Assembly (NCBI GenBank): GCA_937942875.1
Contig: CALEBT010000044.1
Location: 1,677-65,676, forward strand
DNA length: 64,000 bases
Direction of reading: 5' to 3'
Source of the DNA: an uncultured Ignavibacterium sp.
GTDB lineage: Bacteria; Bacteroidota; Ignavibacteria; Ignavibacteriales; Ignavibacteriaceae
The first letter of the stretch is position 1. Every line of letters starts with the position of its first letter. Positions 29,788-37,484 of this stretch are shown piece after piece. Below the pieces are notes generated by a model. The model was not told the DNA's origin and made no database searches. It saw only the letters and a program-made list of their open reading frames with translations. A program made the position numbers and the translations under genes.

Positions 29788-29819
29788 AAAAAAGAGTAAC
29801 CGATTTCTCAGTTACTCTT
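29788..29819 (-). terminator. Intrinsic terminator ending the alpha operon
   Basis: Minus strand AAGAGTAACTGA-GAAA-TCGGTTACTCTT-TTTT. Confidence 0.8.
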
Positions 29820-29841
29820 CCTAAAAAGTTTTGTTTAGCTT

Positions 29842-35738: not shown

Positions 35739-35924
35739 TTATTCGTTTATAGTTTCTGTTTTAACCAAATGACTAACTTTTCTAATCATTCCTCTAATCT
35801 GAGGGGTATCATTATGAATTTTTGAGTAATTTGGTCTTCCTAAACCTAAAGCTTTAATAGTTCTTTTTTGGTCTTCAGGTCTGTCAATTATACTTCTAAT
35901 CTGAGTTACTTTAATCTTAGACAT
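35739..35924 (-). CDS. rpmD: 50S ribosomal protein L30
   Basis: MSKIKVTQIRS.I...LGL...GMI.KV.HLV; start moved to ATG 35924. Confidence 0.95.
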   Translation of the reverse strand: MSKIKVTQIRSIIDRPEDQKRTIKALGLGRPNYSKIHNDTPQIRGMIRKVSHLVKTETINE

Positions 35925-35934
35925 TATCAATACC

Positions 35935-36456
35935 TCATTTGGAAACAAATAAATCTTTAACTGTTACACCTCTCTTTGAGGCCATTTTTCTTGCATCAAT
36001 CTGACTAACCAGAGCATTAAGCGTTGCTTTAACCTGATTGTGGGGGTTACTAGAGCCGAGAGACTTCGTAAGAATGTCTGTTACACCAGCAGCTTCAAGA
36101 ACCGCGCGAACGCCACCACCGGCAATTAAACCTGTACCGGGTGAAGCTGGTCTCAATAAAATCTTACCTGCTCCATATTTTCCAATTATTTCGTGCGCAA
36201 CAGTACCTTTTATAACTGCTACCTGAACAACATTCTTTTTAGCATCATCAACGCCTTTAGCAATTGCATCAGTTACTTCATTAGCTTTTCCTAATCCGAC
36301 TCCAACAACTCCATTGCCATTACCTACAACAACAATCGCATTAAAACTGAATCTTCGACCACCTTTAACAACTTTGGCAACGCGGTTAATGTGAACAACT
36401 TTTTCTTTAAGTCCTTCAACATCTGTTGGTCTGATAACTTTATTTTTGTTTTCCAC
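35935..36456 (-). CDS. rpsE: 30S ribosomal protein S5 (GTG start)
   Basis: [12 protein letters not shown]. Confidence 0.98.
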
Positions 36457-36488
36457 TATTTTTCTCTAAAATTATTTATTGTTACTTG

Positions 36489-36559
36489 CTGCCGGAAGAG
36501 GATTCGAACCTCTACATACGGCTCCAAAGGCCGCTGTCCTACCGTTAGACGATCCGGCA
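36489..36559 (-). tRNA. tRNA-Gln(UUG) inside the spc operon
   Basis: TGCCGGA TC GTC TAACGGTAG GAC A GCGGC CT-TTG-GA GCCGT ATGT AGAGG TTCGAAT CCTCT TCCGGCA G; full cloverleaf, 71 nt, CCA not encoded. Confidence 0.95.
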
Positions 36560-36563
36560 AGGA

Positions 36564-36929
36564 TTAAAATTTTAATCCACCTTCACGAGCTGCATCAGCA
36601 AGGGCTTTAATTCTGCCGTGATATCTGAAACCGTTTCTGTCAAAAACTACTTCGGTGATTTTATTTTCAAGTGCAATTTTGGCTATAAGATTTCCAACAA
36701 TTTTGCTTTTTTCGATTTTACCTTTAGCTGATTTAATTTGCTCTGCCACTTCTTTTGAAAGACTAGAAGCACTAGCAACTGTCTTTCCATTATCATCATC
36801 AATTATCTGAGCATAAATCTGATTTAAACTTCTGTAAACCGAAAGTCTTGGTTTATCAGTAGTTCCATAGATTTTCTTTCTTACTCTAACTTTAATTTTT
36901 TCTCTTCTTTTATTATCTGTTTTAAACAT
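36564..36929 (-). CDS. rplR: 50S ribosomal protein L18
   Basis: [17 protein letters not shown]. Confidence 0.98.
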
Positions 36930-36944
36930 AAAATCTCCTAAGAA

Positions 36945-37484
36945 TTATTTGCCAGCAGTTTTACCAGCTTTTCTACGAATAATTTCTGTAGAATACTTAA
37001 TTCCTTTACCTTTGTAAGGCTCTGGTTTTCTAAATGAACGAATTTTTGATGCTACCTGACCAACTAATTGTTTGTCAATACCGGAAACTATTATTTGAGT
37101 TGGAGTTGGAGTTTCCAATTTAATTCCGGTTGGCGGAATAAAATAAATCGGATGAGAATAACCCATAGAAAGCAATAAATTATTTCCTTTTAATTCTGCT
37201 TTATATCCAACACCTACTATATCTAAAATCTTTTTGTATTCCTCGGTAACGCCTTTAATCATATTTTGAATCAAAGCTCTGGTCAAACCGTGTAAAGATC
37301 TGTTTTCCTTAAGATCATCAGGTCGGGTAACTTCTATAACGTTATCCTTAAAACTTACGCTAATATTCTGATGATATGTTATTCCCAACTCTCCTTTGGG
37401 TCCTTTAATCTTAATATCATTCCCATTGATTGTTACCGTAACACCTGACGGAACCTGTATTGGTTTTCTTCCTATTCTTGACAC
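36945..37484 (-). CDS. rplF: 50S ribosomal protein L6 (GTG start)
   Basis: SRIG..P, PEPYKGKG. Confidence 0.98.
   Translation of the reverse strand: MSRIGRKPIQVPSGVTVTINGNDIKIKGPKGELGITYHQNISVSFKDNVIEVTRPDDLKENRSLHGLTRALIQNMIKGVTEEYKKILDIVGVGYKAELKGNNLLLSMGYSHPIYFIPPTGIKLETPTPTQIIVSGIDKQLVGQVASKIRSFRKPEPYKGKGIKYSTEIIRRKAGKTAGK

What the first reader, a model, noticed from the sequence alone, without database searches (positions are those of the whole stretch)
36457..36566. Intact tRNA-Gln gene inserted inside the spc operon between rplR and rpsE
Seen: a complete 71-nt tRNA-Gln(UUG) begins only 4 nt after the rplR stop and ends 32 nt before the rpsE GTG. It is on the same strand, with no intergenic promoter space, no terminator and no encoded CCA. 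It has U1-A72, the GatCAB transamidation determinant. Established: rplR-rpsE are directly adjacent in nearly all bacteria I know, and tRNA maturation needs RNase P at the 5' end and, for CCA-less precursors, typically RNase Z at the 3' end. Inference: each maturation event cuts the S10-spc-alpha mRNA (organelle-like tRNA punctuation), leaving rplR with a 4-nt unprotected 3' UTR and rpsE-rpmD-rplO-secY-map-infA with a new 5' end. A ribosome terminating on rplR would overlap the acceptor stem, so translation and tRNA release could compete, linking tRNA-Gln supply to ribosome synthesis.
Basis: partly seen in the sequence, partly recalled or inferred. Interest (0 to 1): 0.8.

Follow-up and report, generated by a model that had tools for sequence, protein, structure and literature searches.

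The report
Glutamine tRNA inside ribosomal-protein operon
In many Ignavibacteria, including this one, the only gene found for the tRNA that reads the glutamine codon CAA sits between two ribosomal-protein genes and is likely cut out of their long shared messenger RNA; the position seems undescribed, but tRNAs embedded among protein genes are a known arrangement and the proposed regulatory switch is not supported.

Summary
Observation confirmed. A 71-nt tRNA-Gln(UUG) (36559-36489, minus strand) starts 4 nt after the rplR stop and ends 32 nt before rpsE. It is old and conserved: 39 of 39 nearest genomes with rplR, 13 of 28 sampled families of the class, 0 of 39 families of other classes. It was the only UUG gene in 46 of 47 carriers. 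Carriers lack the tRNA-Gln in front of prs-rplY (0 of 38), where 26 of 28 non-carriers keep a different 72-nt allele. No lineage-type promoter lies near it; the nearest strong one is 12.3 kb upstream, so excision from the polycistronic mRNA is the best reading (inferred, no usable RNA data). The same window has tRNA-Trp 1 nt after rpmG. Closest known case: E. coli secG-leuU. My literature searches found no description of this position; this scan reported it three times before on other genomes.

The parts
36564..36929 (-). rplR (uL18), 121 aa; TAA stop at 36566-36564
   Evidence: TIGR00060 126 bits, over cut-off
36560..36563 (-). 4-nt spacer; U at -1 of the tRNA; predicted RNase P cut between 36560 and 36559
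   Evidence: U at -1 in 134 of 164 loci and A at -2 in 92 of 164; cut site inferred
36489..36559 (-). tRNA-Gln(UUG), 71 nt, U1-A72, G73, no encoded CCA; only tRNA-Gln among the 26 tRNA genes found in the 71%-complete assembly
   Evidence: 99.8% standard pairs and compensatory changes at 13 of 21 pairs across 81 distinct orthologous sequences
36457..36488 (-). 32-nt AU-rich unstructured 3' trailer: C74 then AA, and the rpsE ribosome-binding region; likely site of an RNase E/G or RNase Y cut
   Evidence: fold energy 0.0; C74 in 164 of 164 loci, CCA in 41; enzyme assignment inferred
35935..36456 (-). rpsE (uS5), GTG start
   Evidence: TIGR01021 210 bits
48875..48905 (-). lineage-type promoter-like site (TTGACA, 17 nt, TATATTTG) upstream of rpsL; the only strong site (21.2 bits) on this strand of the window, 12.3 kb upstream of the tRNA
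   Evidence: function inferred
29789..29822 (-). terminator-like hairpin after rplQ, likely end of the unit

Best explanation
This is an intact, conserved tRNA-Gln(UUG) gene, the only CAA-reading tRNA gene found, lying between rplR and rpsE; it is likely transcribed as part of the long str-S10-spc-alpha mRNA and likely released by RNase P at its 5' end and by an RNase E/G- or RNase Y-type cut in the AU-rich trailer followed by trimming and CCA addition. SHOWN: gene anatomy, conservation, single copy, absence of a tRNA at the prs locus in carriers, enzyme inventory. INFERRED: co-transcription; each mature tRNA made splits one transcript into a rpsL...rplR part and a rpsE...rplQ part; charging by GlnRS; the benefit, if any, is passive growth-rate coupling of tRNA supply to ribosomal-protein transcription, not a switch. 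History (inferred): a 71-nt allele unlike the resident 72-nt prs-linked gene entered the rplR-rpsE spacer in a large branch of Ignavibacteria and the prs-linked copy was lost wherever the spc copy is kept.
For: Functional constraint: 99.8% standard pairs, 13 of 21 pairs with compensatory changes over 81 distinct sequences (most loci were collected with patterns that fix the T-loop and anticodon, so invariance there is partly by selection). Sole copy: exactly one UUG match, at the spc site, in 46 of 47 verified carriers among 80 genomes, including six single-contig genomes; CAA is 9793 of 16475 Gln codons in long open frames of the own genome. Distribution: 39 of 39 nearest genomes with rplR; 33 of 33 order members of the phylum sample; 13 of 28 families of the class, none mixed; 0 of 39 family representatives of other classes. 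Reciprocal loci: 0 of 38 verified carriers have a tRNA-Gln before prs, 26 of 28 non-carriers of the class do (prs/rplY/pth identified). No internal promoter: lineage-trained model scores 2.2 bits upstream of the tRNA and -4.3 upstream of rpsE against 6.6-21.2 for held-out training sites; 5 of 163 loci reach 9 bits upstream of the tRNA versus 3 of 163 in a control stretch. U at -1 in 134 of 164 (RNase P preference recalled). RNase P RNA and RNase E/G in 4 of 4 closed relatives, RNase Y and a CCA-type nucleotidyltransferase in 5 of 5 genomes. Precedent: RNase P separates leuU from secG leaving 14 nt after the stop (PMC2241853).
Against: No RNA ends or expression were measured; the one RNA run holds only contigs of relatives. 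rnpB and rne were not found in the own 71%-complete assembly. The promoter model is trained mostly on orthologous prs promoters and weak real sites score as low as 6.6 bits, so a weak or alternative-sigma promoter is not excluded. A terminator-like hairpin lies between tuf and rpsJ (44617-44596), so the transcript reaching the tRNA may start closer than rpsL. In two families promoter-like sites do flank the tRNA (f65 upstream in 3 of 4 loci, f16 downstream in 6 of 6). RNase PH and RNase J are below cut-off in 5 of 5 genomes, so the 3' trimming enzyme is not identified (PNPase-sized frames were seen in the 4 closed genomes). The secG-leuU lead came from earlier notes of this scan as well as recall. 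Carriers do not form one clade (6 changes; AU p 0.039), so a single clean gain is doubtful.
Confidence: 0.7

Rival explanations
1. Regulatory coupling: ribosomes terminating on rplR cover the acceptor stem and compete with RNase P, so translation of rplR sets tRNA-Gln supply and the cut sets the ratio of upstream to downstream ribosomal proteins.
For: Spacer of 8 nt or less in 88 of 164 loci, mode 4 nt, within the recalled reach of a terminating ribosome. In naked-RNA folding of the window's own sequence the rplR tail competes with the cloverleaf (acceptor-stem probability 0.06 with 60 nt upstream, 0.93 without the coding part). After RNase P cleavage the E. coli secG mRNA decays in under 30 s (PMC2241853 section 15), so a cut can matter for mRNA stability.
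Against: 59 of 164 loci have spacers over 15 nt, up to 184 nt. The competing fold is not conserved (0.95 and 0.97 in L002 and L004; mean 0.44 versus 0.53 with shuffled upstream sequence, 163 loci) and would make translation help, not hinder, folding. No conserved protective hairpin (12 of 68 long 5' spacers beat shuffles, Wilcoxon p 0.30; 11 of 88 short-spacer loci). 15 sampled families of the class do without the insert. A 1-nt spacer at rpmG-tRNA-Trp varies 1-10 nt among 5 genomes, so tight spacing is ordinary compaction.
Confidence: 0.1
2. The tRNA and/or rpsE have their own weak promoters, so the gene only sits inside the cluster and most operon mRNA is never cut.
For: Promoter-like sites of 9.8-11.7 bits end 19-29 nt before the tRNA in 3 of 4 f65 loci, and sites of 10.8-12.6 bits lie between tRNA and rpsE in 6 of 6 f16 loci, against 0 of 157 control stretches inside rpsE. 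Generic sigma-70 matches exist inside rplF and rplR (7 found, 3.6 +/- 1.8 expected).
Against: In the window's own sequence and order no such site scores above background; a promoter for the tRNA would have to lie in rplR coding sequence; even with one, read-through transcripts would still carry an RNase P substrate as no terminator precedes it.
Confidence: 0.17
3. Artefact, pseudogene or remnant of a mobile-element insertion.
For: One carrier (G090) has a GUG anticodon on the Gln body; the allele resembles tRNAs of other classes (up to 96%), as an imported gene would.
Against: 101 of 120 loci of a GTDB-wide pattern scan show the same rplR-tRNA-rpsE order; compensatory stem changes; no other UUG gene; no extra DNA, integrase or repeat in the 107-nt gap.
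Confidence: 0.03

Closest known systems
E. coli secG-leuU mixed mRNA-tRNA operon (Mohanty and Kushner, PMC2241853; abstract, section 15 and passages read)
   Same: tRNA gene a few bases after a protein gene's stop, no own promoter, 5' end made by RNase P, 3' side cut by RNase E/G in an A/U-rich stretch, upstream mRNA left with a short 3' tail (14 nt there, 4 nt here).
   Different: leuU is the last gene before a terminator and encodes CCA; here 12 genes (rpsE to rplQ) follow, so the 3' cut would also create a new mRNA 5' end; processing here is inferred, not shown.
tRNA-Thr - rpmG - tRNA-Trp - secE - nusG - rplK cluster (seen in this window; a tRNA-Trp figure legend in PMC13092985 lists tufA, rpmG2, secE, nusG, rplK, one passage read; wide distribution recalled)
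   Same: A tRNA wedged between a ribosomal-protein gene and the next protein gene of a translation-machinery operon; 1 nt after the rpmG stop and 26 nt before secE here.
   Different: Different tRNA and operon; widespread in bacteria (recalled), whereas the rplR-rpsE site was found only in Ignavibacteria.
tRNA-Gln(UUG) - prs - rplY - pth operon
   Same: Same isoacceptor co-located with a 5S-rRNA-binding ribosomal-protein gene; it is the locus used by 26 of 28 non-carriers of the class and by 6 sampled genomes of other classes.
   Different: There the tRNA heads the operon next to the promoter, so release does not truncate an upstream mRNA; the Ignavibacterial prs allele is 72 nt and only 60-73% like the spc allele on average.
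Mitochondrial tRNA punctuation (RNase P plus RNase Z/ELAC2; recalled, no paper read)
   Same: tRNA excision would define the ends of flanking mRNAs; CCA not encoded in this genome.
   Different: One tRNA in a roughly 34-gene unit, 32-nt trailer instead of abutting genes, no canonical RNase Z.

Membership tests
functional bacterial tRNA-Gln(UUG) | cloverleaf with UUG anticodon above the Rfam threshold | tested here: met
   (64.2 bits, cut-off 29)
functional bacterial tRNA-Gln(UUG) | stems maintained by selection | tested here: met
   99.8% standard pairs, 13 of 21 pairs with compensatory changes in 81 sequences
functional bacterial tRNA-Gln(UUG) | mature, charged tRNA detected | not testable with these tools
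   only contigs available
mixed mRNA-tRNA operon (secG-leuU type) | same-strand tRNA right after a stop codon, no terminator between | tested here: met
mixed mRNA-tRNA operon (secG-leuU type) | no promoter of its own | tested here: inconclusive
   lineage model finds none (2.2 bits) but weak sites cannot be excluded; promoter-like sites occur in families f65 and f16
mixed mRNA-tRNA operon (secG-leuU type) | RNase P and RNase E/G encoded | tested here: met
   4 of 4 closed relatives; not found in the 71%-complete own assembly
mixed mRNA-tRNA operon (secG-leuU type) | co-transcription and RNase P cleavage shown on RNA | not testable with these tools
   no raw RNA reads were offered
mixed mRNA-tRNA operon (secG-leuU type) | tRNA is last in the unit, before the terminator (as in secG-leuU itself) | tested here: not met
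   12 genes follow; terminator-like site only after rplQ
organelle-type tRNA punctuation | RNase Z makes the 3' cut | tested here: not met
   no TIGR02651 match over cut-off in 15 of 15 order genomes and 27 of 28 verified carriers; best own hits are 256-261-aa metallo-hydrolases at 94-99 of 293 bits
organelle-type tRNA punctuation | tRNAs abut most mRNAs of the transcript | tested here: not met
   one tRNA between 29842 and 48839
GatCAB transamidation route to Gln-tRNA | U1-A72 pair (determinant recalled) | tested here: met
   161 of 164 loci
GatCAB transamidation route to Gln-tRNA | no glutaminyl-tRNA synthetase in the genome | tested here: not met
   glnS over cut-off in G000 (751 bits) and 25 of 28 verified carriers; gatB also present in G000, so a parallel route is not excluded

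The most novel reading that the evidence does not exclude
A foreign 71-nt tRNA-Gln allele spread more than once among Ignavibacteria into the rplR-rpsE junction, each time displacing the prs-linked gene, and made cleavage of the main ribosomal-protein mRNA obligatory: every CAA-reading tRNA costs one cut, which sets separate lifetimes for the two halves of the operon, by an RNase Z-, RNase PH- and RNase J-independent 3' pathway; family f16 answered by evolving a re-start promoter for rpsE.
Probability: 0.2. Interest if true: 0.6.

Novelty: new variant of a known kind. Interest (0 to 1): 0.3.

Why it matters
The S10-spc-alpha gene order is among the most conserved in bacteria, and an essential single-copy tRNA inside it gives a natural test of how an obligatory RNase P cut in the middle of a very long mRNA is tolerated, and of how 3' ends are made in a lineage that appears to lack RNase Z, RNase PH and RNase J. 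The strict either/or between the spc and prs loci is also a clean rare genomic marker for families of Ignavibacteria. It does not, on present evidence, reveal a new regulatory mechanism, and the group has few cultured and no genetically tractable members that I know of (recalled).

Tried and rejected
RNA evidence: the only RNA run found (X20, sludge metatranscriptome, 0.05 of words) holds contigs of relatives, one running from inside the tRNA through rpsE and one from an rplR-like end into the tRNA; contigs cannot show a single transcript or ends, so not used. Generic sigma-70 scan: at chance level (59 found, 66 expected), replaced by a lineage-trained model. First distribution pattern missed 8 of 33 true carriers in the order and all of f5, f11, f15, so absence was judged from fetched spacers only. 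Simple relocation of the prs-linked gene: rejected, the alleles differ in length and sequence. One clade of carriers: weakly rejected (AU p 0.039, LG+G4, 45 of 63 rows kept, 18 near-duplicates of families dropped); two FastTree trees also interleave carriers and non-carriers. Protective hairpin after the rplR stop: present here (36578-36561, -6.0 kcal/mol) but not conserved. Conserved alternative fold: not found. RNase Z candidates in the own genome: short metallo-hydrolases nearest to Apyc1-like structures. Literature: no paper on this arrangement in searches (open-access library only); the B. subtilis RNase Z paper PMC202377 was not held, so inhibition by C74 is recalled only. The GTDB scan stopped at 120 loci, covers Gln and spacers of about 2-32 nt only, and cannot exclude convergent cases in other phyla.

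Full report
1. Observation. The minus strand carries rplR (36929-36564), a 4-nt spacer, a 71-nt tRNA-Gln(UUG) (36559-36489), a 32-nt trailer and rpsE from GTG at 36456. The tRNA scores 64.2 bits in Rfam and folds as a cloverleaf (z -2.2). U1-A72 and G73 are there; CAA follows G73. No terminator-like site lies in 35900-37300. All other gaps between rpsL and rplQ are 70 nt or less except this one (107 nt) and the one holding rpmJ. Contigs of run X4, from another study than the possible source, cover both junctions in two overlapping pieces.

2. Organism and distribution. The window's L18 is 74-79% identical to loci titled Ignavibacterium, so it is an Ignavibacteria genome. Of 41 nearest genomes, 39 have an rplR match and all 39 have the tRNA behind it. 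In an even sample of 401 genomes of the phylum a pattern hit 36; it missed 8 of the 33 order members, all 8 of which proved to be carriers on inspection, so I judged absence from fetched spacers. Result: carriers in 4 of 4 families of the order and 9 of 24 other families of the class; no family was mixed; none in 39 of 39 family representatives of other classes (two more had no rplR match), and no pattern hit in 302 genomes of other classes. A GTDB-wide scan stopped at 120 loci; 101 are true rplR-tRNA-Gln-rpsE junctions and 19 are chance. 78 of the 101 are titled Ignavibacteriota; of 26 not titled class Ignavibacteria, 25 could be scored and all have their nearest L18 in carrier families. The scan was cut, so other phyla are not excluded.

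3. It is the working, single CAA reader. It is the only tRNA-Gln among 26 tRNA genes in the own 71%-complete assembly. Among 80 genomes searched for Gln tRNAs, 47 are verified carriers; 46 have exactly one UUG match, at the spc site, with a CUG gene elsewhere in most; six of them are single-contig genomes. The exception, G090, has a GUG anticodon. One presumed carrier (G477) has an extra UUG gene in a tRNA array. Across 81 distinct sequences 99.8% of stem cells pair and 13 of 21 pairs show compensatory changes. CAA makes up 9793 of 16475 Gln codons in long open frames. That UUG alone can read CAA is established decoding knowledge.

4. Where it came from. In non-carriers tRNA-Gln(UUG) heads the prs-rplY-pth operon (26 of 28 class members with both loci seen; two f8 genomes have it elsewhere), while 0 of 38 verified carriers have a tRNA there and their prs promoter-like site sits directly before the gene. 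No genome with both was seen among these 66. The spc allele (71 nt) is on average only 60-73% like the 72-nt prs allele of the class but 85-86% (up to 96%) like the prs-linked tRNA-Gln of four families in other classes. So it is a replacement, not a simple move. All carriers fall in one well-supported branch (SH-aLRT 99) interleaved with non-carriers: 6 changes, 3 forced by starred branches, AU p 0.039 against one clade (45 of 63 rows, 1380 columns, simple model, columns include the flanking genes). Either both genes coexisted and were lost reciprocally, or the junction spread sideways; I cannot tell.

5. How it is likely expressed. prs leaders and own tRNA leaders give a lineage promoter, TTGAC(A/T)-17-TATATTTG (35 sites, mostly orthologous). 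On the minus strand of the window the only strong site (21.2 bits) lies before rpsL, 12.3 kb upstream of the tRNA; two hits of 9-10 bits within the cluster are inside rplC and rpoA. The best scores are 2.2 bits before the tRNA and -4.3 before rpsE; held-out training sites score 6.6-21.2. Over 163 loci, 5 reach 9 bits before the tRNA versus 3 in a control stretch of rplR. A terminator-like hairpin follows rplQ, and another lies between tuf and rpsJ. Exceptions: promoter-like sites flank the tRNA in families f65 (3 of 4) and f16 (6 of 6). Inference: in this order the tRNA is cut out of the polycistronic mRNA.

6. Enzymes. RNase P RNA and RNase E/G: 4 of 4 closed relatives, not in the incomplete own assembly. 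RNase Y and a CCA-type nucleotidyltransferase: 5 of 5 (best family CCA transferase, below its cut-off). RNase PH and RNase J: 0 of 5 over cut-off. RNase Z: 0 of 15 order genomes and 1 of 28 verified carriers over cut-off, while 6 of 8 genomes of other classes pass; the own best hits are short metallo-hydrolases. PMC1874595 (passages) states that B. subtilis RNase Z is blocked by CCA and that RNase P can act first on CCA-less precursors; 41 of 164 loci encode CCA and all 164 encode C74. The trailer is AU-rich and unstructured (GC 0.25), like the A/U-rich RNase E site after leuU (PMC2241853, section title and passages). GlnRS is present in the own genome and 25 of 28 verified carriers; AsnRS in 5 of 5; gatB in 4 of 5. 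U1-A72 therefore does not indicate transamidation (E. coli tRNA-Gln, charged by GlnRS, has it too; recalled).

7. The proposed switch. Spacers run from 3 to 112 nt in 164 loci (88 at 8 nt or less, 59 over 15) and to 184 nt in a further family. No conserved hairpin or alternative fold was found. The own rplR end does form a 7-bp hairpin ending 1 nt before the cut, so its 3' end need not be bare, but only 11 of 88 short-spacer loci have one. A ribosome stopping at rplR would overlap the acceptor stem for a moment (footprint recalled), but nothing shows selection for that. tRNA-Trp sits 1 nt after rpmG and 26 nt before secE in the same window, so cells of this lineage already handle a tighter case.

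8. Comparison and novelty. It works like E. coli secG-leuU, where one RNase P cut frees the tRNA, leaves 14 nt after the stop and the mRNA decays in under 30 s (PMC2241853), but it is internal rather than terminal. It fails the tests for organelle-type punctuation. Nine searches of the open library found no description of a tRNA at rplR-rpsE; subscription papers and supplements were not seen, and public annotations of cultured members presumably show the gene. Earlier notes of this scan report the same feature in three other genomes and name secG-leuU; I had reached the reading before looking and checked the paper myself.

9. Verdict. Real, ancient, lineage-restricted placement of an essential tRNA; new variant of the known mixed mRNA-tRNA operon; co-transcriptional excision likely (0.7); regulatory competition unlikely (0.1). 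Interest 0.3.

Noticed in passing
window 60272-59825 (minus strand): tRNA-Trp starts 1 nt after the rpmG (bL33) stop and ends 26 nt before secE; tRNA-Thr ends just before rpmG. Same order with 1-10 nt spacers in 4 of 4 closed relatives.
   Followed up: yes
own genome, all 26 tRNA genes found: Every gene encodes C74 after the discriminator but only 2 encode CCA; together with no RNase Z, PH or J over cut-off this points to an unexplained 3'-maturation route.
   Followed up: partly
L057, L360-L363, L375 (family f16) and L352, L355, L358 (family f65): Promoter-like sites have appeared between the tRNA and rpsE (6 of 6 f16 loci) or just after the rplR stop (3 of 4 f65 loci).
   Followed up: partly
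L070 / L427 1356-1427 (G090): The spc tRNA has a GUG (His) anticodon on a Gln body and no other Gln(UUG) gene was found in that genome; assembly error or anticodon shift.
   Followed up: partly
L269: A second, CUG-anticodon copy of the 71-nt allele lies in the same rplR-rpsE spacer: tandem duplication with anticodon change.
   Followed up: no
window 44617-44596 (minus strand): Terminator-like hairpin between tuf and rpsJ, 28 nt before the rpsJ start, with no lineage-type promoter after it; possible partial terminator or S10 leader element.
   Followed up: no
own genome contigs C21, C67, C37, upstream of tRNA-Asn, tRNA-Arg(UCG), tRNA-Met: Partial duplicates of the tRNA 5' ends interrupted by other sequence lie just upstream of the intact genes; possible small-element insertion scars.
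   Followed up: no
L082 (G340): A non-carrier with a roughly 300-nt rplR-rpsE spacer containing short direct repeats and no tRNA.
   Followed up: no
L413 (G477 contig C6): An array of 11 tRNA genes including a second, divergent tRNA-Gln(UUG); looks phage- or element-derived.
   Followed up: no
own genome C43 9883-11448, C96 924-2186, C62 5236-6657: GlnRS, AsnRS and GatB are all present, so GatCAB looks redundant; closed relative G012 has no gatB over cut-off.
   Followed up: partly
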